Source of the DNA: Leptolyngbyales cyanobacterium
GTDB taxonomy: Bacteria > Cyanobacteriota > Cyanobacteriia > Leptolyngbyales > Leptolyngbyaceae
Length of the DNA stretch: 59,099 nucleotides
Direction: 5' to 3'
NCBI GenBank assembly: GCA_038208945.1
Contig: JBBQYE010000001.1
Coordinates: 1 to 59,099, forward strand
Shown here: positions 19,602 to 45,457 of the stretch, piece after piece
Position numbering within the stretch: the first letter of the stretch is position 1
Layout: each line of letters opens with the position of its first letter
Notes under the pieces: model-generated
Database searches by the model: none
Seen by the model: only the letters and a program-made list of their open reading frames with translations
What the model was told of the DNA's origin: nothing
Program-made: the position numbers and the translations under genes

Positions 19602-22600
19602 ATGACTGCAACGATCGCTAATCTGCCCAGCCACTACGACTCTGCTGCCTCAGAAGCCAAGTGGCAGAAGTTTTGGGAAGAAAACCACGTCTTTAAAGCC
19701 GACCCCAATGCCCCTGGCGAACCTTACTGTGTCGTGATTCCGCCTCCCAACGTCACGGGCAGTCTTCATATGGGTCATGCCTTTGAGACAGCATTGATTG
19801 ACGCGCTTGTGCGATATCACCGTATGTGTGGCTACAACACACTCTGGCTTCCTGGAACGGATCATGCCAGCATTGCAGTGCAAACTATTCTTGAAAAGCA
19901 GCTAAAAGCTGAGGGAAAGACTCGGCAAGAGTTGGGGCGCGAGAAGTTTCTAGAACGTGCTTGGAAATGGAAAGCCGAATCGGGAGGCACGATCGTCAAT
20001 CAGCTTCGACGATTAGGCGTTTCGGTAGACTGGTCAAGAGAGCGCTTTACGATGGATGAAGGGCTGTCAAAAGCCGTGCTAGATGCCTTCGTTCAGCTTT
20101 ATGAGGAGAAGCTGATCTATCGAGGCAACTATCTGGTCAACTGGTGCCCTGCCAGTCAATCTGCTGTGTCTGACTTAGAAGTTGAAAATCAGGAAGTCAA
20201 CGGGCATTTGTGGCATTTTCGCTATCCGCTGGCGCAGAGTGATGGCTATGTGGAGGTTGCCACGACTCGCCCTGAGACGATGTTGGGAGATACTGCCGTT
20301 GCGGTCAATCCGAAGGACGATCGCTACAAGCATTTGATTGGTCAACGGGTGATTTTGCCGCTCGTAGACCGAGAGATTCCAATTATCGGCGACGAGTTTG
20401 TTGATCCCACGTTTGGGACGGGATGCGTTAAGGTGACTCCTGCTCATGATCCCAACGATTTTGAGATGGGCAAGCGGAATAACTTGCAATTCATCAACAT
20501 TATGAACAAAAACGGCACTCTCAATGAGAATGCCGGAGAGTTTCAAGGGCAAGACCGCTTTGTGGCGCGTAAAAATGTGGTCAGACGGCTTGAAGAAGAA
20601 GGAATGCTGGTCAAAATTGAGGACTATAAGCACACCGTTCCCTATAGCGATCGCGGCAAGGTTCCCGTCGAGCCTCTGCTCTCTACTCAGTGGTTCGTCA
20701 AAATCAAACCCCTGTCAGAGCCTGCTCTATCGGATCTGGATCAACAGAATTCGCCTGAGTTTGTGCCCGATCGCTGGACAAAAGTTTATCGAGATTGGCT
20801 CGTGAGCTTAAAAGATTGGTGCATCTCTCGCCAACTCTGGTGGGGACACCAAATCCCCGCCTGGTATGCTGTCAGCGAGACGGGTGGCATCATCACCGAC
20901 ACGACCCCGTTTATGGTGGCTCAAAGTGAGGCAGAGGCGAGAGAAAAGGCGATCGCTCTATTCGGCGAAAATGTTCAGCTTGAGCAAGACCCCGACGTGC
21001 TCGACACGTGGTTTTCGTCTGGCTTATGGCCCTTCTCAACCTTGGGCTGGTCTAACGAAACGCCAGACTTTAAGCGCTACTATCCGACTGCGACGCTGGT
21101 GACGGGGTTTGACATTATCTTCTTTTGGGTTGCCCGCATGACGATGATGGCAAAGCACTTTACGGGAGAAATGCCCTTCAAAACCGTCTATATTCACGGA
21201 TTGGTGCGGGATGAAAACAACAAGAAGATGTCCAAGTCGTCTAATAACGGCATTGATCCGCTGATTTTGATTGACAAATATGGTACGGATGCGCTGCGAT
21301 ACACTCTCGTGCGTGAGGTGACTGGAGCGGGGCAAGACATTCGACTGGAATATAACCGCAAAACGGATGAGTCTGCGTCGGTTGAGGCATCTCGTAATTT
21401 CACCAATAAGTTGTGGAACGCCTCTCGATTTGTGTTGATGAACCTAGATGGCAAGACCCCCGACCAGTTAGGATTGCCCGATCGAGATCAGTTGGACTTG
21501 AGCGATCGCTGGATTCTGTCCCGATTCCACCAGGTCACTCAGCAGATTCGCGATCAGATCGATCACTATGGCTTGGGCGAGTCTGCCAAACTGTTATACG
21601 AATTCATCTGGGGCGACTTCTGCGACTGGTATATTGAACTGGTCAAATCTCGTCTGCTGGGTGATGATGCCGTTTCTCGTAAGGCTGCTCAACAGACTCT
21701 CGCCTACGTTCTAGAAGGGACTTTGAAGCTACTTCACCCCTTTATGCCCCACATCACCGAAGAGATTTGGCACACGGTGACCCAGATCGATGAAACGTCA
21801 GGTCAGACACTAGCGTTACAGACCTACCCGGTTCCCGATTCTACGCTGATCAACCCTGACCTAGAGCAGCAGTTTGACCTCCTGATTGACACGATTCGCA
21901 CGATTCGGAATCTCAGAGCCGAGGCAGACATCAAGCCCGGAGTCAAAATTGAGGCAATCTTGCAAACCGATAGCGAGAAGGAAGAACACATCCTCAAGTC
22001 AGGTCAGCCTTACATTCAGGATTTAGCAAAGGTGCAAACGTTGAGGATCAATCAACCTCAGACTCAGCAAGCGCGTCCAGAAGTTACTGCGGATTCTTCT
22101 GAGACGGATCTTTTTGGCTCGATCGCCACATTCTTATCCACTCATCAGCGCGTCTTACTGACGATCGGCTTCATTCTGCTGACGTTAATCACGCTCAAAA
22201 TTTGTGCGGGTCTTCTAGAAGCCGTTCACGAAATTCTGCTTCTGCCAACCTTGTTAGAACTCGTGGGGATTGGCTACACCGTCTGGTTTATCAAGCAAAA
22301 ACTCTGGAAGGTGGGCGATCGCCAGCAGCTATTCAGCCAGATTGAGCAATTCAAAGCCGAAGTCTTCGGGGAGCCGCGTCCAGATGCACCCGACCCGATC
22401 GCGAATTCGTCATCGCTCAGCGAAGAAGACTCAGCCCAAACGATCGTCGGCGTGGTCGGAACGGTACGAGTCGCAATTCCTCTCGCGGGATTGATCGATT
22501 TAGTCGCTCTCAAGGCAAAAACCGAGAAAGATTTGAAAAAAGTAGAAGCTGAAATTCAAGCCCTCTCAGGACGGTTGAACAACGCTAAATTTGTCGATAA

Positions 22601-22697
22601 AGCCCCTCCTGATGTGGTTCAAACTGCACGAGATGCGCTGTCAGAATTTGAGACGCAAGCCGAGATTCTCCAGACACGACTCGATCGCTCGGATTGA
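19602..22697 (+). CDS. valS: Valine--tRNA ligase with inserted CAAD membrane-anchor domain
   Basis: HMGH and KMSKS motifs; two-TM insert with [17 protein letters not shown] before the C-terminal coiled coil. Confidence 0.98.
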
Positions 22698-34253: not shown

Positions 34254-35609
34254 GTGGAAGACGTAGAACTGACTCTAACACCAGACGATTACAGTCTTCT
34301 TACTGACCTCTATCAACTGACGATGGCAGCCTGCTATGTCGGCGAAAACATCGACCAGCGCCGTGCCAGCTTTGAGATTACCGTCCGTCGATTGCCGCCT
34401 CAGTGCGGATACTTGATTGCGATGGGGCTTGCTCAAGCGCTGGACTACTTAGAGAAATTTCGATTCAGTGCTGCTCAGGTTGAAGCGCTTCAGTCGATCG
34501 GCATTTTTGACCACGCCCCCGCTCGGTTTTGGACTCTGCTGCGAGAAGCTCAGTTTAGTGGCGATGTTTGGGCAGTGCCAGAAGGAACCGCCATCTTCGC
34601 TAACGAACCCTTGCTGCGGATAGAAGCCCCGCTCTGGCAAGCGCAACTCGTCGAAACTTATCTATTAAACACGCTGAACTATCAAACACTGGTGGCGACT
34701 CGATCGGCGCGAATGCGTGACGTAGCGGGAGCAGACGCAACTCTATTAGAGTTTGGCACTCGCAGAGCCTTTAGTCCCCAGGGTGCTTTGTGGGCGGCTC
34801 GTGCAGCCCTCGCAGCAGGATTAGATGCCACGTCTAACGTGTTAGCTGCTGTCAAACTAGGACGCGTCCCGTCTGGCACGATAGCACACGCGCTCGTGAT
34901 GGCATTGAGCGCAACAGAAGGCACTGAGGCAGAGGCATTTACGGCATTTCATCGCTACTTTCCCGGCGCGCCGCTGTTGATTGATACCTATGACACGATC
35001 GCGGCGGCTCATGCCTTATCCGACCAAATCAAAGCGGGGAATCTTCAGCTATCGGCGGTGCGAATCGATTCAGGTGATTTGGGGTCGCTATCTCAGCAGG
35101 TGCGGGCAATATTGCCAGGAGTCGCCATCATTGCAAGCGGTGACTTGGATGAATGGAGGATTGCTGAACTTAAGGCGGCAGGAGCCTGTATCGATGGGTA
35201 TGGAATTGGAACGCAGCTTGTGACAGGTTCTCCGGTAAATGGAGTCTATAAACTGGTGGAAATTGGCGACATTCCGGTGATGAAAGAGTCTCCTGGCAAG
35301 ATTACCTATCCAGGGCGGAAGCAGATTTTTCGTCGTGTTGAGAACGGAATCGTGCAGCGCGATCGTTTAGGTTTAATCCACGAAACTCCTGATCACGAAC
35401 AGCCTTTAATGCAGCTTGTTTTCAAGCAGGGGCAGCGAATGCAAGAATCAGACAGTTTGAGTACGATCGCTGAACGAACCCGCGACTCTGTTGCCAGTTT
35501 GCCTCCCTCCGTTCGAGATATCGATCAGCCCAAATCCATTCCGTTAGATCTATCTGATCATCTGTCTGCTCTAATCGAAAAAACTCGACGAAAAACAGTC
35601 GAGTCGTGA
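34254..35609 (+). CDS. pncB: Nicotinate phosphoribosyltransferase
   Basis: LLTDLYQLTM, EFGTRRA, LIDTYDT, VRIDSGD and GVYKLV. Confidence 0.95.
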   Translation: MEDVELTLTPDDYSLLTDLYQLTMAACYVGENIDQRRASFEITVRRLPPQCGYLIAMGLAQALDYLEKFRFSAAQVEALQSIGIFDHAPARFWTLLREAQFSGDVWAVPEGTAIFANEPLLRIEAPLWQAQLVETYLLNTLNYQTLVATRSARMRDVAGADATLLEFGTRRAFSPQGALWAARAALAAGLDATSNVLAAVKLGRVPSGTIAHALVMALSATEGTEAEAFTAFHRYFPGAPLLIDTYDTIAAAHALSDQIKAGNLQLSAVRIDSGDLGSLSQQVRAILPGVAIIASGDLDEWRIAELKAAGACIDGYGIGTQLVTGSPVNGVYKLVEIGDIPVMKESPGKITYPGRKQIFRRVENGIVQRDRLGLIHETPDHEQPLMQLVFKQGQRMQESDSLSTIAERTRDSVASLPPSVRDIDQPKSIPLDLSDHLSALIEKTRRKTVES

Positions 35610-35649
35610 ACGTTTTGGGATCAAAGATTCTCCTTCACCCGTCTAACTT

Positions 35650-36246
35650 ATGTTAAGAGTTGCTTTGTTTGGCACTAGCGCTGACCCACCTACAAGAGGA
35701 CATCTTGCCATCTTGTGCTGGCTCTCTCAGCACTTTGATCAGGTCGCGGTGTGGGCATCTGATAACCCATTTAAGTCTCACCAAACAGCGTTAGATCATC
35801 GGACTGAGATGTTGCGACTGCTGATCAGCGACTTGAATTTTCCCCGACAGAATATTCAGGTGTATCCAGAGTTGAGCAATTCTCGCACGGTGGTCACGGT
35901 TGAACGGGCGCAGGAACTCTGGCAGAGTGCAGAATTTACGCTGGTGGTCGGGTCTGATTTGGTGCGTCAACTGCCAAAATGGTTTCGGGCGAGAGACTTG
36001 CTCGATCGAGTCAAACTCTTAGTGGTGCCCCGACCTGGATACTCAATTTCAGACAGCGAGTTAGACCCGTTGAGGCAGATCGGAGCCGATGTAACGATCG
36101 CCGATCTCAATGCCCCAAACGTCTCATCTACCGCCTATCGTGAGCAGGGAGAAACCGAAGGAGTGACTTCTCTGATTCAGGCTTATATCGATCGGGAGCA
36201 ATTGTACAGATGTCACGCACGCAGAGAAAAATTGCCCACTTATTGA
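35650..36246 (+). CDS. nadD: Nicotinate-nucleotide adenylyltransferase
   Basis: FGTSADPPT.GH, VGSD and VSST.YR. Confidence 0.92.
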   Translation: MLRVALFGTSADPPTRGHLAILCWLSQHFDQVAVWASDNPFKSHQTALDHRTEMLRLLISDLNFPRQNIQVYPELSNSRTVVTVERAQELWQSAEFTLVVGSDLVRQLPKWFRARDLLDRVKLLVVPRPGYSISDSELDPLRQIGADVTIADLNAPNVSSTAYREQGETEGVTSLIQAYIDREQLYRCHARREKLPTY

Positions 36247-36953
36247 AGGGAGAGGCGTTAGCAGATTTTAGAGTGGGCGTTGATAACGCAATCTTCTCAG
36301 TCGATACCGCGCTGAATCGGCTGCTGGTGCTGCTGGTGATGCGCCAAGAAGAACCCTTTTTGGGACAGTGGAGTCTGCCCGGAACGCTGGTCAGACAGGG
36401 CGAATCGCTAGAGAATGCCGCCTATCGAATCTTGGCTGAAAAGATTCGGGTGCGAAATCTCTATCTAGAGCAACTCTACACGTTTGGCGGTCCAAATCGT
36501 GATCCGCGTGAGGCAGATGATAGCTATGGTGTTCGCTACTTGTCGGTTAGCTATTTTGCGCTGGTGCGCTATGCCGAAGCTGAACTGATTGCCGATGGTG
36601 TGAGCGGCATTGCCTGGTATCCGTTAGATCAGTTGCCGCAGTTGGCATTTGACCACAACACGATTTTGGAATATGGACATTGCCGACTCAAAAATAAGCT
36701 GGAATACAGTCCCGTCGCGTTTGATGTGTTGCCCGAAGTTTTTACGCTGAGTGATTTGTTCCAGCTTTATACAACGGTGCTGGGAGAAAACTTCTCAGAT
36801 TATTCAAACTTCCGATCGCGCTTGCTCAAACTCGGCTTTCTCAGAGACACGGGGATCAAAGCCTCACGGGGGGCGGGTCGTCCAGCGAGTCTCTATCGAT
36901 TTGATGCAGAAGCCTTTGCTCCTCTAAAAGACAAACCCTTGGTATTTATTTGA
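36210..36953 (+). CDS. nrtR: NUDIX-wHTH transcriptional regulator NrtR
   Basis: NUDIX-like WSLPG, EQLYTF...RDPR, LAFDH and C-terminal GRPA.LYRF. Confidence 0.9.
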   Translation: MSRTQRKIAHLLKGEALADFRVGVDNAIFSVDTALNRLLVLLVMRQEEPFLGQWSLPGTLVRQGESLENAAYRILAEKIRVRNLYLEQLYTFGGPNRDPREADDSYGVRYLSVSYFALVRYAEAELIADGVSGIAWYPLDQLPQLAFDHNTILEYGHCRLKNKLEYSPVAFDVLPEVFTLSDLFQLYTTVLGENFSDYSNFRSRLLKLGFLRDTGIKASRGAGRPASLYRFDAEAFAPLKDKPLVFI

Positions 36954-36975
36954 CGGTTAGAAAAGGAGGCTGACG

Positions 36976-38694
36976 GTGAAGATTGCGATCGCTCAACTCA
37001 ACCCGACGATCGGGGATTTAGACGGAAATGCTCAACGAATCTTAAACGCCGCGCAACGAGCCGCGAGTGAGGGAGTGCGATTGCTGCTTACGCCAGAGTT
37101 GTCGTTGTGCGGATATCCGCCGCGCGATTTGTTGCTCGATCCCAGTTTTGTCGAGATGATGACTCGAACGCTGTTAACGCTGGCTGAAACGTTGCCGACG
37201 GGCGTTGCGGTTTTAGTCGGAACCGTGGAACCGAATCCTCGATCGCACCAAAATGGTGGCAAACCTCTGTTCAATAGCGTTGCTCTCTTAGAACAGGGAA
37301 CCATTCAACAAATCTTTCACAAACGGCTGTTGCCAACCTATGACGTGTTTGATGAAGACCGCTATTTTGAACCTGGAAACGAGTCAAACCAGTTCACCTT
37401 AGAGCATTTGGGGCAGTCGGTTCGGATGGGTGTCACCATTTGCGAAGACCTTTGGAATGATGAAGAGTTTTGGGGTAAACGGACGTATACGCTGAACCCG
37501 ATCGCCGATCTTGCTCAACAAGGTGTTGATTTCACGATTAATCTGTCGGCATCTCCTTATACGGTCGGTAAACAACGGCTGCGAGAAGCGATGCTGCAAC
37601 ATGGAGCCGTCAGATTCGATCAGCCGATCGTTTATGCCAATCAAGTGGGCGGCAATGACGATCTAATTTTTGATGGTAGTAGTGTCGCCGTCGATCGTCA
37701 CGGAAATCTAGTGTGTCGTGCCCGTGCTTTTGATGAAGATTGGGTCGAGATCGACTACAATCCCGACACTCAGGATTTTCTGCCTAGCTCGATCGCGCCT
37801 GCTCCCGACTGTGACGAAGCCGAAATTTGGGCAGCGCTGGTAATGGGCGTGCGGGATTATGCTCGCAAGTGTGGCTTTTCAAAAGTTGTGTTGGGGTTAA
37901 GTGGCGGCATTGATTCGGCTCTAGTTGCTGCGATCGCTGCCTCTGCTCTCGGTGCTGAGAATGTGCTGGGTGTCTTGATGCCTTCGCCCTACAGTTCTGA
38001 TCACTCCGTTGACGATGCGTTAGAACTTGCTAGAAATATTGGGATTAAGACTCAGACATTGGCGATCGCGAATCTCATGCAAAGTTACGACCAAACCCTA
38101 GAAGACTTATTTGCCGGGACAGAGTTTGGCATCGCAGAAGAGAATCTTCAGTCTCGAATTCGGGGCACGTTGTTGATGGCAATCTCCAACAAATTTGGCT
38201 ATTTGCTCGTCTCTACGGGCAACAAATCTGAGATGGCGGTCGGCTACTGCACGCTATACGGCGACATGAACGGAGGACTGGCAGCGATCGCAGATGTCCC
38301 TAAAACCCGCGTCTACTCCATCTGCAAATGGTTGGGTTCTGACATCATTCCTGCCCACATCGTCACCAAAGCACCCAGCGCTGAGTTAAAGCCAGGGCAG
38401 GTGGATCAAGACTCGCTGCCAGCCTACGAGATTTTGGACGACATTCTCGATCGCTTGATTCATCAACACCAGTCCGCTACCGAAATCGTTGCTGCTGGAC
38501 ATGAGCAAGTTATTGTCGATCGCATCATCAAACTCGTAACCATTGCAGAATTCAAGCGTCGCCAAGCGCCACCGGGACTGAAAATCACCGATCGCGCGTT
38601 TGGTACGGGCTGGAGAATGCCGATCGCCACTAAATGGATTTCTCGAACTGCGAGAGCGATCGATCCTGTGAAACAACCCTCTCAGCCTGTTTGA
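36976..38694 (+). CDS. nadE: Glutamine-dependent NAD+ synthetase
   Basis: Nitrilase domain (PE, K, ICED) plus GLSGGIDS, TGNKSE and EFKRRQAPP. Confidence 0.96.
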   Translation: MKIAIAQLNPTIGDLDGNAQRILNAAQRAASEGVRLLLTPELSLCGYPPRDLLLDPSFVEMMTRTLLTLAETLPTGVAVLVGTVEPNPRSHQNGGKPLFNSVALLEQGTIQQIFHKRLLPTYDVFDEDRYFEPGNESNQFTLEHLGQSVRMGVTICEDLWNDEEFWGKRTYTLNPIADLAQQGVDFTINLSASPYTVGKQRLREAMLQHGAVRFDQPIVYANQVGGNDDLIFDGSSVAVDRHGNLVCRARAFDEDWVEIDYNPDTQDFLPSSIAPAPDCDEAEIWAALVMGVRDYARKCGFSKVVLGLSGGIDSALVAAIAASALGAENVLGVLMPSPYSSDHSVDDALELARNIGIKTQTLAIANLMQSYDQTLEDLFAGTEFGIAEENLQSRIRGTLLMAISNKFGYLLVSTGNKSEMAVGYCTLYGDMNGGLAAIADVPKTRVYSICKWLGSDIIPAHIVTKAPSAELKPGQVDQDSLPAYEILDDILDRLIHQHQSATEIVAAGHEQVIVDRIIKLVTIAEFKRRQAPPGLKITDRAFGTGWRMPIATKWISRTARAIDPVKQPSQPV

Positions 38695-38762: not shown

Positions 38763-39134
38763 CTAGAGTTGAATGGTGATTTTGTTGTGCAATTCCTCCA
38801 CTCGAATCAGTGAACCGTTACCCAGGACAATGTTGAACTTCACTAGCGATCGTTCAACTTGATATCCCGGCAACACTCGAACAATCTGATACTCCGTCGT
38901 CAAATCACTCGTGCCGTCCCATTTAAGGAATGCCAGTTGATTGGACGCAACCTCACTCAGTTGCGAAACAAAGTCTTCAATCACATCGCTAACATTCGGA
39001 ATAATGCCAGACGATAGGAAGATATAACGCTCTTGCAAATCTAACGTAATGCTAACTCGATAACGTTTTTCGGTTGAGCATCGCAACTCAACCGTGAACG
39101 AAATCGAGCTAGGAATCACAGTCCTAACTCCCAT
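38763..39134 (-). CDS. Hypothetical protein, 123 aa, no recognisable family
   Basis: ATG with a GAGAGG RBS that is embedded in a 13-bp perfect inverted repeat. Confidence 0.65.
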   Translation of the reverse strand: MGVRTVIPSSISFTVELRCSTEKRYRVSITLDLQERYIFLSSGIIPNVSDVIEDFVSQLSEVASNQLAFLKWDGTSDLTTEYQIVRVLPGYQVERSLVKFNIVLGNGSLIRVEELHNKITIQL

Positions 39135-39151
39135 AGTTTTTGTCCTCTCGG

Positions 39152-39271
39152 TTAATTCAAAGAGGACAAAAACACTGATTTCTCAGACGGTCTGTAGGGG
39201 AGAAAAATGGTTGCAGGATCTTGATTCCAGCCTTTCAAGATCCCATAGCAAAGCTGACGGTGTACAATCAT
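39152..39271 (-). CDS. Putative 39-aa leader peptide
   Basis: GGAGG RBS; MIVHRQLCYGILKGWNQDPATIFLPYRPSEKSVFLSSLN; stop codon lies in the loop of the RBS-sequestering hairpin. Confidence 0.45.
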   Translation of the reverse strand: MIVHRQLCYGILKGWNQDPATIFLPYRPSEKSVFLSSLN

Positions 39272-39274
39272 GAA

Positions 39275-39392
39275 CGCCTCCTGAGTTAATGCTAGTAACT
39301 AGGGATGGAAGTCCTCGGAGTCTGATCGGCAAATCAGATTTCGGGGCATAACTTCATCACTGCGATGTATTCTACAAGAGTTTTTGGTTTTT
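39275..39392 (+). ncRNA. Candidate antisense RNA
   Basis: TACAAT -10-like box at 39263-39268; hairpin 39304-39358 whose mismatches are G-U pairs on the plus strand only; T-tracts downstream. Confidence 0.35.
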
Positions 39393-39571
39393 TGGAATGC
39401 TGAATTTTTGAGGCGCGTTGCCTTCGGCTCTTGCAAAGCCGATCGTTGTTTTGGGAAAGTGCGAGGCGATTAGCCGATCGGGGAACTGCGAAGCGATCGT
39501 TTCTCTAGGATCTCTGATGAAAAGTGAAGGCAGATATAAAGTTTCGGGGTATCTGCCCAAATCAGGGCGAT

Positions 39572-39605
39572 ATACGGAAACTTTTCGTATAATCAATAGT
39601 TAGCC
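39572..39605 (+). mobile_element. attI-like integron recombination site
   Basis: GTATAAT-caata-GTTAGCC has the 7-5-7 simple-site spacing and sits at the 5' boundary of the first cassette. Confidence 0.6.
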
Positions 39606-39772
39606 ATCTTCTTCCTCCGGTTAAGGCAGTAGCTTGAAGGTTAACTGTGGGGCATTATCTTCTGTAATGTGTTCAGGATATTCCTGAAATGGGCACTCTA
39701 GTACTGATAGGTATAAGAAGCATTCGGAACCATTATCTAAAAGTTCAATTAAACCGCATAGGAAGAAGTGAA

Positions 39773-42700
39773 ATGGACATCGCTCGACAGCTAGCTGAGA
39801 AATACCCTAATCTTTTTGATCCATTGGTTAATTCATACTGGGAAGCTGAACCAGCTAGTAAAGAGTATCGAAAGCTAAGTAAAGTAATCAAGCAATTACT
39901 CGGTCAAGACGATCATCACGCAGAAATGATACAAATGCGTCTTGGCAACCAAACTTTACAAGCTATTGGTGATCAGTTCAACTTAACCCGTGAACGTGTC
40001 CGTCAAATAATCATTAAGTATGACAGTTATATAACCAATATTGATGTTGGTTCAAAAGAATGGTGTATTAGATTAGTCAACCAGCTACTTAGATCCCAAG
40101 CTGATCCCAAAAAACTTCCCTCAAATGAAGAGTTAGAAAATCTTCATTTGAAGCTCACAGGTGCTCTTAGAGAGCATTTCACATCAGCAAAGAAGTATGG
40201 CAAGCTAAATGAAAAAAATCGGTTAGAGCTTGTCAAATTATTTGAACTTGATGTTGATTCTGAAGTTAAAAATCACCGATCTTGGTCTCTAGAACGATTG
40301 ATTTACGACGTTCGAGAGTTTGCAAAGCAAATTGGTAAGCCTGATTTTATGCCCATGCAGCTAGAAATGGCTGAGTATGGACGAAGTGATTTAAGGGGTG
40401 TGATTCAGCGATTTGGTGGTCAATCCAAAGTTGCAGAACTTTCTGGACTCAGGTATCAAGGGCAAACCGTTGCACCTGACGGTTCACGTACTTATTGGAC
40501 TGAAGAGCGCATTCGGGCTTTTCTTTATGAAGTTGCTGAAAAAGAAGGGCATCCCGGTTATATGCCTACTCAAGCAGACTGCGTCAAATATTCACAGAAG
40601 CAGAACGCAAGCATACTTTCTATTTTTACTCGTGCGTTCACACCAAAAGAACCTACTCTGAGTTGGCTTGATGTCGCTCAAAAATATGGACTTAAATATG
40701 ACTCTGAATACCATAGAGTTACTATTGCCTACATTCGTTCATTTGTTAAGTCATTAGGTGATGCTCTCTATAACCTTACACCTGCTGAAATTTATGTCTT
40801 ATTTGAGCAGCAAGGAATAAACAAAGCTGGTGGAAATACGAATATAAGAACGTTTGATAATCTTGTCCACGCAATTCAAACCGGAAATTTGCCTAGAGAG
40901 GAGATAGAAAAGTGGGCAAACGGCGGCAGCAGTCATATTACACAAGCGCTTCTTGATCCTGAGAACAAAACGGTTGAAGAAGCATTTTCAAAAGCTGATA
41001 ATTTCTTAAATAAGGTTAGCCATAAAAACAAGAAAGACAACCTTAATGATGAGTCTTATAAAGAAGATCTAACTCAAGATTTACCTATAACAAGAGTTTC
41101 AGACACTTTAAGTTCTCTTGCTAAAATTACAGATATCCTAATTGACGGATCTAGCGATGAAGAGGCTATTAAATTCCTGATTTCTAAGGCAATAGCAAAA
41201 CTTTGGAAGCGTTGCTTCTATGAGGAAGAAAAGGCTTTAATAGAAGCGAAGCAGCATAAAGGAAATATTTATAGCGAGGCAGTGCGAGATACTTTCATTG
41301 ATGAATACACACGTTGCAAGCAGTTACCTCTGCCTGAAGGTTACTCGTTTATAGATTTGAGTGGAATCAGGCGTGAGCCTAAACTCATGCAAAGACTAAT
41401 TTCTTACCGTGTCTTGAAAGATGGTCGTGTTCTTAACCTCAGCGGTACTGGTACGGGTAAGACTTTATCAGCAGTTCTTGCGAGTCGTGTGATTGGTTCT
41501 CAACTAACAGTCATCGCTTGTCCTAACGCTACAATTGATGGCTGGGCTACAACGATTAGAAGTGCTTTCGCAAAGTCCGAAATTGCTTCAAAAAGTTGGA
41601 CTCCTATTTGGTCAACTGAAGGATTACCGCGTTATTTACTGATAAATCATGAGATGTTTCAGAATCGCTTTGAAGGTTTAATTAAGCGATTTATTAACAA
41701 CAATGCTATAGATTTTGTTGTTATAGATGAATTACATCAGGTAAAACAAAGGGATGAAGATCTTGAAACTCAGCGTCGTAGATTGATAAATGGTTTAATT
41801 ACCGATGTTCCAGAGGATAGACCAAAACCTCGTGTACTAGGAATGTCTGCGACACCAGTTGTTAACAATCTGTATGAAGGTAAATCTTTAGTTGAGTTGG
41901 TAAGTAGTCTGCGTCATGATGATATTGGTACGGCAACAAATATTCATAATTGCATGAAGCTCTATCAGAAGTTCACTACAATGGGCTTCCGAATGGTGCC
42001 TCAAAATCAAATTTCTCGCACCCCACAAATTCATCCGGTTGACTGTACTCCCTATCTCGAAGATTTATTTGCGCTAGGACACCATCCCCATCCTCAGCAA
42101 GTAGAAGCAATCCTAGTTCGCGCTCGTTGGTCTATCATTCGACAGCATCTTCGGACAAAAACAGTCATTTTTACTGAGTATGTAAAAGATATTGTCCCGT
42201 ACCTGGTTCAGCAGATCAAGCAAGCAGGAATGTCTGTTGGTGTCTATACAGGTAACGACAAATATGCCACGGAAGCAGGCTATAAGGATATGCTGGAGCA
42301 GTTTCTGAAAGGCGATGTTGAGATTTTAGTGGCATCAATTAAGTGTCTTGGTACTGGTGTCGATGGGCTTCAGCTTGTTTCTAATAATATAATTTTTGCT
42401 ACTTTGCCCTGGACTAGCACTGACTATGAGCAGGCAATCGGTCGTTTTGATCGCGAAGGGTTTGTGTTCGATAAGCTTGATATCCATATTCCTAAAACTT
42501 ATGCGATTCTAAGTGATGGTAAGGAATGGAGTTGGTGCGAGTCTAAACTACTCCGGCTTGAAAATAAGCGAGATATTGCAAAAGCGGCCGTCGATGGAGA
42601 AATACCCGATAGTAATAGCCAGTTGACCCCAGCAAAAGCTACTCAATATTTGTTGGGATGGCTGAGAAGGTTAAGTGAAGAAGGGCTGAATGAAATTGAA

Positions 42701-43363
42701 CGCAAACAAATTCGAGTTCCTCTAGATGAAGCAAGCGATGCTGAAGTTTCTCACCGCTATGCATCTTACGGTGATTTTGCAACACTGAATGCTCGTTGGA
42801 ATAACTCTCATTCTAGTGTTACTTATGAACGGCTTAGTAAAAACTCAGAAGAATGGTGTTATTACCACACTCGAATGGATGAACTTGAGGCTTCTTGGCA
42901 AGTAGTTCCGCGTGAACAGTGTGTTCAACATCTCACGGAAAATTTACCTTCAGGTTCCGTTATTGGAGACTTTGGCTGTGGTCAAGCAAAATTAGCTGAA
43001 GCCTTGAGGGAGGTTCACACTGTTCACTCCTTTGATCATGTTGCAATAACTCGAAGCGTAGTTGCCAGTGATATGGCTAATACGCCCCTAGATGATGCAA
43101 CACTAGATGCTGCTGTCTTCAGCCTCTCTTTAATGGGAGCCAACATCAAAGACTATATTGCAGAAGCATACCGTACCCTAAAGCCTGGTGGTCAATTGCT
43201 CATCTATCATCCCGCTAAACATCATGACAGGCTTAAATTTGTCGAAGGATTAAACCATTTAGGTTTGGCTATAGTTCAGCATGACGAAATCTACAAGTGG
43301 CATTATATTTGGGCAATTAAACAAGGTCGTCAAGAGAATCCATCTGCTGATGTGAGTTTTTAA
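39773..43363 (+). CDS. Sigma70-r4-like HTH + helical repeats + SF2 helicase + Rrp8-like SAM methyltransferase fusion
   Basis: TLQAIGDQFNLTRERVRQI; GTGTGKT, IDELHQ, GMSATP, TGVDG, QAIGRFDR; IGDFGCGQAKLA, AVFSLSLMG, RTLKPGG. The ORF opens at 39689 but ATG 39773 has the better RBS. Confidence 0.88.
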   Translation: MDIARQLAEKYPNLFDPLVNSYWEAEPASKEYRKLSKVIKQLLGQDDHHAEMIQMRLGNQTLQAIGDQFNLTRERVRQIIIKYDSYITNIDVGSKEWCIRLVNQLLRSQADPKKLPSNEELENLHLKLTGALREHFTSAKKYGKLNEKNRLELVKLFELDVDSEVKNHRSWSLERLIYDVREFAKQIGKPDFMPMQLEMAEYGRSDLRGVIQRFGGQSKVAELSGLRYQGQTVAPDGSRTYWTEERIRAFLYEVAEKEGHPGYMPTQADCVKYSQKQNASILSIFTRAFTPKEPTLSWLDVAQKYGLKYDSEYHRVTIAYIRSFVKSLGDALYNLTPAEIYVLFEQQGINKAGGNTNIRTFDNLVHAIQTGNLPREEIEKWANGGSSHITQALLDPENKTVEEAFSKADNFLNKVSHKNKKDNLNDESYKEDLTQDLPITRVSDTLSSLAKITDILIDGSSDEEAIKFLISKAIAKLWKRCFYEEEKALIEAKQHKGNIYSEAVRDTFIDEYTRCKQLPLPEGYSFIDLSGIRREPKLMQRLISYRVLKDGRVLNLSGTGTGKTLSAVLASRVIGSQLTVIACPNATIDGWATTIRSAFAKSEIASKSWTPIWSTEGLPRYLLINHEMFQNRFEGLIKRFINNNAIDFVVIDELHQVKQRDEDLETQRRRLINGLITDVPEDRPKPRVLGMSATPVVNNLYEGKSLVELVSSLRHDDIGTATNIHNCMKLYQKFTTMGFRMVPQNQISRTPQIHPVDCTPYLEDLFALGHHPHPQQVEAILVRARWSIIRQHLRTKTVIFTEYVKDIVPYLVQQIKQAGMSVGVYTGNDKYATEAGYKDMLEQFLKGDVEILVASIKCLGTGVDGLQLVSNNIIFATLPWTSTDYEQAIGRFDREGFVFDKLDIHIPKTYAILSDGKEWSWCESKLLRLENKRDIAKAAVDGEIPDSNSQLTPAKATQYLLGWLRRLSEEGLNEIERKQIRVPLDEASDAEVSHRYASYGDFATLNARWNNSHSSVTYERLSKNSEEWCYYHTRMDELEASWQVVPREQCVQHLTENLPSGSVIGDFGCGQAKLAEALREVHTVHSFDHVAITRSVVASDMANTPLDDATLDAAVFSLSLMGANIKDYIAEAYRTLKPGGQLLIYHPAKHHDRLKFVEGLNHLGLAIVQHDEIYKWHYIWAIKQGRQENPSADVSF

Positions 43364-43399
43364 CCATAAGCGAGTAGTTTGCGCTAGAGTACGCCAGAT

Positions 43400-43485
43400 G
43401 GCTAACACTGCGTTGGTGCGGACGGAACGAAGGCTATCTGTGGGAGTTCAAGGTTGTCTGCCGCCGCACAACTTCACCGTTGGGT
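43400..43485 (+). mobile_element. attC site 1 (86 bp)
   Basis: R'' GGCTAAC, 5-nt spacer, L'' GTTGGTGC ... L' GCACAAC, 6-nt spacer, R' GTTGGGT; two extrahelical bases at the expected positions. Confidence 0.85.
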
Positions 43486-43595
43486 TGCCTCTATCAAAGG
43501 GCGCAAAGTGTTGGTGTTTCCTAGCTGTTTGCGTTTTTTCGATCGCGACCTCCCGATCGTTCATCAAACTTTGGATTTGATCAAAATCAGGTGAG
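43479..43595 (+). repeat. 117-bp direct repeat, copy 1
   Basis: Near-identical to 44984-45100. Confidence 0.93.
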
Positions 43596-43735: not shown

Positions 43736-44008
43736 ATGACAGTTCGACAGCCCCGCTACAGCAAAGAAGAATTCGCTCGACGGGGTGATGAGATTTATGA
43801 ATCTCAGGTGCGTTCCCAAGTCGAAGAAAGCAATTATGGCAAGATTGTGGAGATCGACATTGAGACAGGCGCTTTTGAGGTAGCTGATACGCCTATGGTC
43901 GCAGTCGATCGACTTTATGAACGTGAACCCGATGCTCAACCCTGGGTGATTCGGATTGGACATCGCGCCTTTTACCACTTCGGTTCGTGGAGTCTGAAGC
44001 AGAATTAA
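43736..44008 (+). CDS. Small conserved protein (DUF5678-like; usually partnered with a clan AA aspartyl protease)
   Basis: GAGG RBS; EEFARRGDEIYE...GKIV.IDIETG.FEV. Confidence 0.8.
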   Translation: MTVRQPRYSKEEFARRGDEIYESQVRSQVEESNYGKIVEIDIETGAFEVADTPMVAVDRLYEREPDAQPWVIRIGHRAFYHFGSWSLKQN

Positions 44009-44023
44009 GGAATCGGTGGGGCA

Positions 44024-44050
44024 TGGTCTAATCAATGGTTAGAACCGCGA
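44024..44050 (+). mobile_element. Collapsed/degenerate attC remnant
   Basis: GGTCTAAT-caatg-GTTTAGAACCG shortly after a stop codon; the first part equals the R'' of the attC at 44904. Confidence 0.45.
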
Positions 44051-44224
44051 TGAGAGTCCTAGCACTTCGATCTCTTAGAGTAAAATCGCTGCTACAGGGA
44101 TTAGAAGTTCCTGAACTAACCCATTAGGCTAATTGGTAGAATAAGTGGACGCTAGCGGTCGCCCCCATGCGACAAGCCAGCATCCGCAGCCTTTTCACCT
44201 AATCTCGGAAAAGGAGATTCTCAG

Positions 44225-44443
44225 ATGCCATTAGCTGAACTCATGTCACAAATCCAGAATCTTCCAAAAATTGACAAGCTTCGGCTGATGCAGTTCCTTG
44301 CAACAGAACTGGTCAAAGAAGAAGATGCAAACTTCTTTGTTGCCAACCAAGAATATCCTGTCTGGTCGCCCTACAATTGCTCTGAGGCTGCCAATGTTCT
44401 AATGAATCTTCTGGATACAAAGCGACAAGAGCAGAATGGTTGA
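44225..44443 (+). CDS. Small antitoxin-like hypothetical protein
   Basis: AGGAGA RBS; 72 aa (DKLRLMQFL..EL, YPVWSPY); stop overlaps the next start. Confidence 0.8.
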   Translation: MPLAELMSQIQNLPKIDKLRLMQFLATELVKEEDANFFVANQEYPVWSPYNCSEAANVLMNLLDTKRQEQNG

Positions 44444-44855
44444 CACTCGAATATTTCCCTACAAAATCATTGACAGAAGTCTTGGCATGGTCGATCGAAT
44501 GCCTTATCTGCCTTTGACACTCAGTCTTAATGGTCAATTCCTGAACGCTGAAGGCTTATTAGATACAGGCGCAAGCGTCAACGTTTTGCCCTATGAGTTG
44601 GGGCTACAACTGGGTTTAATCTGGGAGGATGAGACGCTTTCGGTTCTATTGGCAGGAAACTTGGCTCGATTTGAAGCTCGCGCAGTCATTGTTGATGCTC
44701 AAATTAGTTCATTCCCAACGGTTAACCTAGCATTTGCCTGGACACAAGCGGTCGATGTGCCGATGATCTTGGGGCAAGCCAATTTCTTCTTTGAGTTTGA
44801 TGTCTGTTTCTTTCGTGCGCGTTCTGAATTTGAAGTCTGCCCTAAAGCAGGTTGA
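44436..44855 (+). CDS. Retropepsin-like (clan AA) aspartyl protease
   Basis: LLDTGAS catalytic motif and ILGQ..FF motif. Confidence 0.85.
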   Translation: MVDTRIFPYKIIDRSLGMVDRMPYLPLTLSLNGQFLNAEGLLDTGASVNVLPYELGLQLGLIWEDETLSVLLAGNLARFEARAVIVDAQISSFPTVNLAFAWTQAVDVPMILGQANFFFEFDVCFFRARSEFEVCPKAG

Positions 44856-44903
44856 ATAGAAATAAAGGCAAGAAGGTCAGTTGGACGCGCTCGGTGAGGC
44901 ACG

Positions 44904-44990
44904 GTCTAATAATTCAAATGCAGCGGACGCATGAGAGCCGCTAGTGCTGAGTCTGAGTTTGTCTGCTGCCGCTGATTTGAGCCGTTGGGC
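44904..44990 (+). mobile_element. attC site 2 (87 bp; R'' ends in AAT instead of AAC)
   Basis: R'' GTCTAAT, 5-nt spacer, L'' AAATGCAG ... L' CTGATTT, 5-nt spacer, R' GTTGGGC. Confidence 0.8.
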
Positions 44991-45100
44991 TGCATCTCGC
45001 AAGGGGCGCACAGTGTTGGTGTTTCCTAGCTGTTTGCGTTTTTTCGATCGCAGCCTCCCGATCGTTCATCAAACTTTGAATCTGATCAAAATCAGGTGAG
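44984..45100 (+). repeat. 117-bp direct repeat, copy 2
   Basis: Near-identical to 43479-43595. Confidence 0.93.
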
Positions 45101-45124: not shown

Positions 45125-45457
45125 ATGTACGATGACACTTGCCGATTCCTTGCCGAACACTTCTCCGCCGACTTTGCCAGTTGGCTGTTGGGATCGATCG
45201 CCCTGACCAAAATCAAACCGTCTGAGCTTTCCCTCGAACCAATTCGCGCCGATGCCCTAATTCTGCTTCAGTGCGATGAGTCTGTTTTGCACCTGGAATT
45301 TCAAACTCGTCCTGACCCAGAGATTCCCTTCCGCATGGTAGATTACCGCACACGAGTGTACAGACACGATCGCTTTAACACAACCCCTCAGCCACTCCAC
45401 ACGAAGGCTAAGACAGATGCTGAAGAAGCCACTAGAGCTGTTCGTCGAGAGATTTAG
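45125..45457 (+). pseudogene. Truncated Rpn / PD-(D/E)XK putative transposase (DUF4351-type) fragment
   Basis: YDDTCRFLAE, ELSLEPIRAD, LHLEFQT and FRMVDY; similarity is lost after about residue 80. Confidence 0.8.

What the first reader, a model, noticed from the sequence alone, without database searches (positions are those of the whole stretch)
39773..43363. HTH/repeat-SF2 helicase-Rrp8-like methyltransferase fusion: candidate single-gene defence or nucleic-acid modification system
Seen: a protein of about 1200 aa with a sigma70 region-4-like HTH and two roughly 60-aa repeats (WSLERLIYDVREFAKQIGKPDFMP... and WTEERIRAFLYEVAEKEGHPGYMP...). It has intact SF2 motifs (GTGTGKT, DELH, SAT, QAIGRFDR) and a C-terminal SAM domain (W..YH...W...P, DFGCG.A.LA, HSFD, FSLSLMG). 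I found no nuclease motif and no NPPY/DPPY/PC DNA-methylase motif. The gene is visibly AT-richer than its neighbours and I saw no GCGATCGC in it. Established: this methyltransferase signature resembles eukaryotic Rrp8/nucleomethylin (m1A rRNA methyltransferase), and integron cassettes often carry anti-phage genes. Inference: a horizontally acquired, apparently uncharacterised sensor-helicase-methyltransferase that may act on RNA or DNA, for example in abortive infection.
Basis: partly seen in the sequence, partly recalled or inferred. Interest (0 to 1): 0.85.

Follow-up and report, generated by a model that had tools for sequence, protein, structure and literature searches.

The report
Integron-borne DNA motor with Rrp8 methyltransferase
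A cyanobacterium carries, as the first cassette of an integron, one large gene that joins repeats predicted to bind DNA, a chromatin-remodeller-type motor and a methyltransferase otherwise known from eukaryotic ribosomal RNA; it is likely an unstudied defence enzyme, and its target is untested.

Summary
The 1196-aa protein has a sigma-4-like HTH, two homing-endonuclease-associated repeats, a conserved helical core, an intact SF2 motor and an Rrp8/nucleomethylin-type methyltransferase (Z 27 to 2zfu). The motor is SWI2/SNF2-type, so likely a dsDNA translocase rather than an RNA helicase.

The gene is a 3,880-bp integron cassette in first position behind an attI-like site. A congener keeps intI at this locus; 0 of 7 congeners carry the gene.

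It belongs to a large, patchy family (bacteria, plasmids, large viral contigs) with a constant core and swappable N-terminal repeat arrays. I found no paper on it, but this scan noted it in at least 8 other genomes.

New here: the sister clade has lost the methyltransferase and sits among DISARM genes in 3 of 9 loci. This subfamily has His where 51 of 51 other members have Glu beside the predicted active site.

Best reading: a defence enzyme that tracks DNA and likely methylates an adenine ring nitrogen (0.35). Main rival: the motor is the working part and the methyltransferase is accessory (0.25). No function was tested.

The parts
39565..39601 (+). attI-like integration site; crossover between G39599 and T39600
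   Evidence: Shared with congeners G401 and G402, whose sequence diverges right after GTT; congener G405 has a full intI in the same nadE-sir interval
39600..43479 (+). Gene cassette, 3,880 bp, first in an array that lacks intI
   Evidence: GTTAGCCATCT at 39599 is the exact reverse complement of AGATGGCTAAC at 43396; the same cassette follows an attC in L006; contigs in runs X2 and X4 begin to match at 39599
39773..43363 (+). Gene for the 1196-aa HTH/repeat-SNF2-Rrp8-like fusion
   Evidence: dN/dS 0.04-0.29 in the 15 of 20 domain comparisons that could be computed
39917..40012 (+). Sigma70 region-4-like HTH (aa 49-80)
   Evidence: Pfam PF04545, 24.9 bits, cut-off 24.1
40274..40696 (+). Two helical repeats of the homing-endonuclease-associated type (aa 168-229 and 239-308)
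   Evidence: Pfam PF18780 weak; repeat HMM from L041; both modelled as the same helix-strand-helix unit
40721..41362 (+). Family-wide conserved helical core (aa 317-530), function unknown
   Evidence: Alignments of distant homologs begin at about aa 317; invariant residues are mostly hydrophobic or structural
41363..42676 (+). SWI2/SNF2-type ATPase (aa 531-968) with Walker A GTGTGKT, DELH, SATP and QAIGRFDR intact
   Evidence: Foldseek top hits Mot1, SMARCAD1, Rad54; VIA Z 19.1 Ino80, 18.3 archaeal SNF2-dsDNA complex, 17.6 ZorD; motifs
42743..43360 (+). Rrp8/nucleomethylin-type class I SAM methyltransferase (aa 991-1196)
   Evidence: PF05148 E 7e-34; 2zfu E 2e-26; Z 27.1, rmsd 2.0 over 200 residues, next methyltransferase Z 16.1
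43208..43210 (+). His1146, in place of the Glu of the ExxSRF motif at the end of strand 5
   Evidence: Glu in 51 of 51 other family members and 12 of 13 eukaryote-type RRP8; His in 10 of 11 of this subfamily
43400..43485 (+). attC site closing the cassette
   Evidence: Bottom-strand hairpin; member of a set of 16 attC-like sites from this genus; varied loose ends after 43481 in 3 of 4 runs
43736..44993 (+). Rest of the array: a 90-aa ORF, a weaker attC-like site at about 44026-44105, a 72-aa ORF, a 139-aa aspartyl-protease-like ORF, and attC 44902-44993
   Evidence: the middle site was not recovered by the attC HMM

Best explanation
This is a mobile single-gene enzyme, carried as the first cassette of an integron, that likely defends against invading DNA: its HTH and repeats are predicted to bind DNA, its SNF2 motor would track and distort the duplex, and its Rrp8-type domain would methylate an exposed adenine ring nitrogen (m1A-type), a mark that would block replication or transcription. 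Shown: the domains, the intact ATPase and SAM-binding motifs, purifying selection, cassette mobility, swapping of N-terminal arrays in the family, and the RM/DISARM context of relatives. Inferred: DNA binding, translocation, the substrate, the methyl position and the defence role. The logic is that N1 of adenine is buried in a base pair (general knowledge), so a DNA-acting m1A enzyme would need a motor, and the domain is usually found with one.
For: The motor is SWI2/SNF2-type, a class described as translocating on dsDNA without strand separation and as widely coupled to adenine methylases in mobile elements (PMC5512222, passages). The methyltransferase is far closer to nucleomethylin than to any other solved one (Z 27.1 against 16.1), and Rrp8/NML make rRNA m1A (10.1101/313874, passages). 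Of the 150 best methyltransferase relatives, 81 carry both motor lobes and 13 the second lobe; three more pair it with a different SF2 helicase in another domain order. N-terminal arrays differ on one core: DUF4379 in 38 of 50 regions scanned, INT_rpt in 3, Sigma70_r4 in 5, alpha-CTD in 4 (50 of 70 candidates given), with at least 6 label changes on the tree. RM, DISARM, CRISPR, CBASS-effector, Abi or HEPN/SIR2 genes lie within two ORFs in 17 of 54 non-viral locus groups that have neighbours; 6 of the 17 belong to one clade coupled to a Type IIG RM gene. First-position cassettes can be expressed and integrons are enriched 2.2-fold in defence systems (10.1101/2024.07.02.601686, passages). Distribution is patchy: 12 of 401 genomes of the phylum, 0 of 7 congeners.
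Against: No activity was measured. The solved homolog and the characterised homologs act on rRNA, not DNA. This subfamily lacks an otherwise invariant Glu and the SRF loop, so its methyltransferase may be altered or dead. The sister clade persists without the domain. 37 of 54 locus groups have no strict defence neighbour, and some copies sit among housekeeping genes (L002, L019, L020). The only background control is weak: 0 of 42 other ORFs of this window. No way to spare self DNA is evident: no AlkB-like family appeared among 140 neighbours scanned. The domain's net charge is -8, which does not suggest unaided nucleic-acid binding. At 3.9 kb the cassette is long for an integron defence cassette.
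Confidence: 0.35

Rival explanations
1. The targeting repeats and SNF2 motor are the working defence part (for example stalling or stripping polymerases on invader DNA, or assisting RM/DISARM). In this subfamily the methyltransferase domain is accessory: a SAM-binding regulator or a weakened enzyme.
For: The sister clade (support 100) ends at about aa 970 with intact motor motifs. Five genomes carrying such a form have no PF05148 match (0 of 5; control 4 of 4 gene-bearing genomes). It lies inside DISARM operons: G525 drmD-HEPN-methylase-[gene]-two ORFs-drmA-drmB and G462 [gene]-drmA-drmB-drmC-like; L071 has a full DrmMI 26 bp upstream. Glu to His at 1146. SAMTOR, a SAM sensor, has the same fold at Z 15.9.
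Against: The SAM pocket (D1066-G1070, D1088, D1100) and YH, W, P and L-x-L-M-G residues match RRP8; the domain has dN/dS 0.04-0.14. His can serve as a base. 6 of 9 methyltransferase-less loci show no DISARM gene in the stretch held. The role of this Glu in NML is not established in anything I read.
Confidence: 0.25
2. It keeps the Rrp8 substrate class and methylates RNA (rRNA, tRNA or nascent transcripts), possibly recruited to transcribing polymerase through the sigma-4 and alpha-CTD-like domains, and causes growth arrest on infection.
For: About 45 of the 65 positions conserved in eukaryote-type RRP8 have the same majority residue in the bacterial groups; 41% identity to a eukaryotic RRP8-like protein over 147 aa. 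The subfamily and its sister carry RNA-polymerase-like sigma-4 and alpha-CTD domains.
Against: The motor is SNF2-type, with DEAD-box helicases far down the lists. The first helix differs (FR.LNE.LY in eukaryotes against F..LN..WN here). Most of the family uses zinc or integrase repeats, not polymerase domains.
Confidence: 0.2
3. It writes a protective self mark on DNA (RM-like, or anti-restriction like DarB on phages and plasmids), with changed chemistry such as an exocyclic N-methyl.
For: SNF2 plus adenine methylase is a known anti-restriction dyad (PMC5512222). Family members occur on large viral contigs (L086-L102) and 3 plasmids, and one clade is coupled to Type IIG RM genes.
Against: No (N/D/S)PP(Y/F/W) or PC motif. 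An m1A mark would be harmful as a heritable self mark. No partner nuclease lies in the cassette.
Confidence: 0.1
4. It is a selfish or non-defence accessory gene that spreads like a homing element and has no anti-phage role.
For: The repeats are of types linked to homing endonucleases (Pfam names). Copies interrupt or adjoin housekeeping operons (L002, L020).
Against: No nuclease motif to drive homing; purifying selection; first cassette position.
Confidence: 0.1

Closest known systems
Rrp8 / nucleomethylin (Pfam PF05148, PDB 2zfu), eukaryotic 25S/28S rRNA m1A methyltransferase
   Same: Same fold over the whole domain (Z 27.1, rmsd 2.0, 200 residues) and the same SAM pocket and YH/W/P/LxLMG residues
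   Different: Fused to an SNF2 motor and repeats; bacterial and mobile; different first helix; His for the ExxSRF Glu; substrate unknown
SWI2/SNF2 plus adenine methylase dyad of phages and conjugative elements (DarB-like; PMC5512222)
   Same: An SNF2-type motor and a SAM methyltransferase in one chain on mobile DNA
   Different: The methylase here is Rrp8-type with no N6-adenine motif; variable repeat arrays at the N-terminus
Type ISP restriction-modification enzymes (LlaGI/LlaBIII; recalled, from no call)
   Same: Single chain with SF2 motor followed by a methyltransferase
   Different: No Mrr nuclease, no gamma-class N6-adenine methylase, no C-terminal target recognition domain
DISARM class I (DrmD SNF2 helicase, DrmMI methylase, DrmABC)
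   Same: SNF2 motor in a methylation-linked defence; methyltransferase-less sister forms lie within DISARM operons
   Different: The protein is not DrmD (28 bits against a cut-off of 610); no drm gene lies in this window's cassette array
Integron-encoded single-gene anti-phage cassettes (10.1101/2024.07.02.601686)
   Same: One-gene cassette with attC, first position behind attI
   Different: Much longer than typical; the word 'helicase' does not occur in that paper's main text; the array has lost intI

Membership tests
Rrp8/nucleomethylin methyltransferases | Methyltransf_8 domain above cut-off and NML fold | tested here: met
   118 bits against 27; Z 27.1 to 2zfu
Rrp8/nucleomethylin methyltransferases | Intact SAM-binding motifs (DFGCG, strand-2 Asp, strand-3 Asp) | tested here: met
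   D1066-G1070, D1088 and D1100 conserved in all groups
Rrp8/nucleomethylin methyltransferases | ExxSRF motif after strand 5 and FRxLNExLY first helix | tested here: not met
   YHPAKHH and FATLNARWN here; the motifs were defined from 13 eukaryote-type sequences in my own alignment
Rrp8/nucleomethylin methyltransferases | Falls in the eukaryotic RRP8 clade | tested here: not met
   13 eukaryote-type rows form their own group (support 96) apart from the query; labels assigned by motif, tree unrooted
Rrp8/nucleomethylin methyltransferases | Makes m1A in large-subunit rRNA helix 25.1 | not testable with these tools
   Needs an assay
SWI2/SNF2 ATPases | Two RecA lobes with SNF2-type motifs and fold | tested here: met
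   Top structural hits for the motor are SNF2 proteins; motifs intact; Pfam SNF2-rel_dom is below its cut-off (17.5 against 24.9)
SWI2/SNF2 ATPases | dsDNA-stimulated ATPase and translocation | not testable with these tools
   Needs an assay
Type ISP / Type III / Type IIG restriction-modification | N6-adenine, N4- or C5-cytosine methylase catalytic motif | tested here: not met
   0 pattern hits; no RM model among PADLOC hits at E 0.01
Type ISP / Type III / Type IIG restriction-modification | Nuclease domain or partner | tested here: inconclusive
   No motif hit; aa 160-535 gave no clear fold match, so a cryptic nuclease is not excluded
DISARM DrmD | Score above the DrmD model cut-off, with drmABC and drmMI alongside | tested here: not met
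   28.3 bits against 610; no drm gene among the window ORFs scanned
Integron gene cassette | ORF closed by an attC whose inverse core matches the upstream core site | tested here: met
   11 of 11 bases complementary; hairpin on the bottom strand
Integron gene cassette | Found in other array positions with boundaries at G|TT | tested here: met
   L006, L009; runs X2, X4
Complete integron | Adjacent intI gene | tested here: not met
   None at this locus; a broken half copy on contig C85; genome 65% complete. The array fits the CALIN definition of PMC4889954

The most novel reading that the evidence does not exclude
Bacteria and large phages use a widespread family of motor-driven, repeat-aimed enzymes that damage rival DNA with N1-methyladenine (restriction by alkylation), and the eukaryotic rRNA enzyme Rrp8/nucleomethylin was recruited from this conflict family.
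Probability: 0.2. Interest if true: 0.9.

Novelty: new variant of a known kind. Interest (0 to 1): 0.63.

Why it matters
None of my ten literature searches found an Rrp8-type methyltransferase joined to a DNA motor. If it methylates DNA at adenine N1, that would be a new defence chemistry and a modular, retargetable alkylating enzyme. If the motor alone works, it adds a new accessory component to DISARM and RM loci. Either way this copy is a good test case: one gene, naturally packaged as a cassette, with a natural methyltransferase-less sister and a natural Glu-to-His variant as built-in controls. The family may also bear on the origin of eukaryotic Rrp8. The family itself is not new to this scan (at least 8 earlier genomes).

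Tried and rejected
Known defence systems: PADLOC and NCBIfam gave only generic helicase or sigma matches far below cut-offs.

Fold of aa 160-535: no clear match (best Z 7.3, generic helical bundles; Foldseek none at E 0.001). The ESM Atlas gave no usable hit. These blanks show nothing about novelty.

HIP1 avoidance as a sign of sequence specificity: rejected. Zero copies is what 40% GC predicts, and older residents such as L182 and L185 hold 9 and 5 CGATCG.

Link to the neighbouring NAD operon: rejected as functional. The gene is a cassette at a variable integron, and congeners hold other DNA there.

Cultured phages: no match among 50,697 records.

Expression: no RNA holder listed. No sigma-70 consensus promoter was found at 39100-39800.

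The joint 43478 to 39599 in run X4 (one contig) could be an excised circle, but only 82 of the 141 letters before it fit, so I read it as another cassette's attC, as in L006.

attC sites beside homologs: my genus-specific model found them for L006 and L009, plus one weak partial hit in L007, among 111 loci. It cannot see other genera's sites, so I make no claim about how often the family is cassette-borne.

Stand-alone bacterial methyltransferases: short hits are mostly fragments that start in the linker; a true stand-alone form is not excluded.

Literature: searches listed no paper on this fusion. A 2026 review (PMC13434031) has none of the five terms tried. Supplements were not read, so large defence-prediction tables may list the family.
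Full report
Observation. The ORF is real and intact: 1196 aa from ATG 39773 to the stop at 43363. Pfam finds a sigma-4 HTH, a weak HNH_repeat, both SF2 lobes and Methyltransf_8 at E 7e-34. The only solved sequence relative is nucleomethylin, 2zfu. The two repeats are real, and homolog L041 carries a longer array of the same unit. No nuclease or DNA-methylase motif was found by pattern. The gene is the most AT-rich stretch of its size in the assembly and has 0 CGATCG against 15.8 expected. The host is a cyanobacterium by gene content and by its relatives.

It is an integron cassette. An attC site at 43400-43485 closes the gene, and its inverse core is the exact 11-base reverse complement of the junction at 39599. 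The 37 bases up to that junction are shared with congeners G401 and G402, which diverge right after GTT. Congener G405 has a complete intI between nadE and sir, the same interval. In L006 the same cassette follows another cassette's attC, and in L009 the same attC is followed by other DNA. Contigs of two public runs start matching at 39599. So this is a 3,880-bp cassette in first position of an array that has lost intI. The gene was not found in 7 congeners or 36 family members searched and occurs in 12 of 401 genomes of the phylum. The literature says first-position cassettes can be expressed and that integrons hold 2.2 times more defence systems than expected (10.1101/2024.07.02.601686, passages only). 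Expression here is untested.

Anatomy. The AlphaFold model (mean pLDDT 79) matches SWI2/SNF2 ATPases for aa 514-940: Mot1, SMARCAD1, Rad54, Ino80, an archaeal SNF2 on dsDNA and ZorD. The C-terminal domain matches nucleomethylin at Z 27.1, rmsd 2.0 over 200 residues; the next methyltransferase scores 16.1. Residues 160-535 have no clear fold match. All domains are under purifying selection where it could be computed (dN/dS 0.04-0.29, 15 of 20 comparisons; the rest were saturated).

The family. A search gave 1101 proteins at E 0.001, with more than 80 near-full-length relatives above 45% identity among the 120 listed. Across 111 loci in 73 groups the core from about aa 317 is constant, while the N-terminus varies from a few to 990 extra residues. 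Of 50 N-terminal regions scanned (of 70 candidates), 38 hit DUF4379 zinc modules, 3 INT_rpt, 5 Sigma70_r4 and 4 RNA polymerase alpha-CTD. The three main types need at least 6 changes on the motor tree (FastTree, 71 rows). Members occur on large IMG/VR contigs up to 501 kb and 3 plasmids, but in none of 50,697 cultured phage records. Of the 150 best methyltransferase relatives, 94 carry part or all of the motor; 56 do not, and these include fragments and eukaryote-type RRP8. The 13 eukaryote-type rows form one group (support 96) lying among motor-fused rows; the tree is unrooted, so direction is not shown.

Neighbours. By my tally, 17 of 54 non-viral groups with neighbours have an RM, DISARM, CRISPR, CBASS-effector, Abi, HEPN or SIR2 gene within two ORFs. 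I left out 15 viral groups and 4 groups with no neighbour. Six of the 17 are one clade coupled to a Type IIG RM gene, so about 12 are independent. Six more groups have PIN, YfbU or nuclease-like neighbours. The remaining 31 have neither, and several sit among housekeeping genes. The control is weak (0 of 42 other window ORFs), so this is a lean, not a measured enrichment.

Two results specific to this subfamily. First, its sister clade (support 100) stops at about aa 970 with motor motifs intact. In a family of small-genome cyanobacteria 5 of 301 genomes carry this form and none of the 5 has PF05148 (control). In G525 it lies between the methylase and drmA of a DISARM operon with DrmD, DrmA and DrmB above their cut-offs. 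In G462 it precedes drmA-drmB and a drmC-like gene below cut-off, and is itself split by an insertion sequence. L071 has a full DrmMI directly upstream. That is 3 of 9 such loci, and L071 and G525 are 74% identical, so not independent. G525, G462 and G669 were placed in the clade by identity, not by tree. Second, the query's subfamily has His (10 of 11) where 51 of 51 other members and 12 of 13 eukaryote-type RRP8 have Glu, at the end of strand 5. By class I fold topology this lines the substrate side; that placement is inference, and I did not measure it on the model. The SAM pocket itself is intact.

Mechanism. I commit to a DNA-tracking defence methyltransferase: repeats aim, the motor translocates and distorts the duplex, and the Rrp8 domain methylates an exposed adenine ring nitrogen (0.35). 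A motor-only defence with an accessory SAM-binding domain comes next (0.25), then RNA methylation (0.2), a protective mark (0.1) and no defence role (0.1). Some conflict or defence role overall is about 0.75 to 0.8 by these odds. SNF2 plus adenine methylase is a known pairing in mobile elements (PMC5512222, passages), but that methylase is of the N6 type. Rrp8 and NML make rRNA m1A (10.1101/313874, passages). Type ISP architecture, AlkB repair and m1A blocking base pairing are recalled knowledge.

Novelty. Ten searches listed no paper on the fusion; supplements and subscription papers were not seen. Sources name members only by domain, such as DEAD/DEAH box helicase or zinc-ribbon protein. This scan's own notes hold 10 findings of the family in at least 8 genomes; these are unchecked AI notes and not independent support. 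What this window adds is the proven cassette form, the sigma-4/repeat subfamily, the Glu-to-His change and the DISARM-embedded sister without a methyltransferase. Verdict: real, not a member of any characterised system tested, a new variant of motor-methylase conflict enzymes, with unproven chemistry.

Noticed in passing
G000:C85:7879-9415: A broken intI half gene (two TGA stops) lies about 1 kb from an attC site on another contig; attC-like sites also occur on C38, C68, C196, C27 and C8.
   Followed up: partly
window 43451-43595 and 44956-45100: The attC 3' half plus about 110 downstream bases is repeated at 87% identity, and again twice in congener G401, suggesting a shared cassette leader.
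   Followed up: no
window 39151-39470: A non-coding stretch upstream of attI recurs on contigs C267, C57 and C7 at 88-90% identity; the adjacent 123-aa ORF 38763-39134 has no Pfam match.
   Followed up: no
window 34254-38694: NAD salvage operon pncB-nadD-nrtR-nadE, ordinary; it flanks the integron in congeners too.
   Followed up: partly
L002:2789-13300 and L020:1-6106: One homolog sits inside a speD-DUF4178-speE-amine oxidase operon and another between aldolase-II and mtnA-like genes, both linked to SAM recycling; two cases only.
   Followed up: no
L004:8001-13373: A split homolog lies two ORFs upstream of a type I-B cas8 gene.
   Followed up: partly
P0170, P0186, P0227: A second architecture: a ResIII-like SF2 helicase first and the same Rrp8-type domain last, with a different motor from this family.
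   Followed up: partly
window 39773-43360 against L007 and L009: Synonymous distance is mosaic by domain (motor 0.36 and methyltransferase 0.87 to L007; 0.74 and 0.31 to L009), a hint of recombination between alleles.
   Followed up: no
L070, L079, L080, L081, L084, L085: One clade with three DUF4379 modules is tightly coupled downstream of a Type IIG REase-MTase gene, a candidate two-gene system.
   Followed up: partly
window 45125-45457: A short ORF with no Pfam hit whose start recalls cyanobacterial Rpn-type proteins (recalled); it looks truncated and has relatives on C236 and C12.
   Followed up: no
window 19602-22697: Valyl-tRNA synthetase with a CAAD membrane domain, a known cyanobacterial feature.
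   Followed up: no
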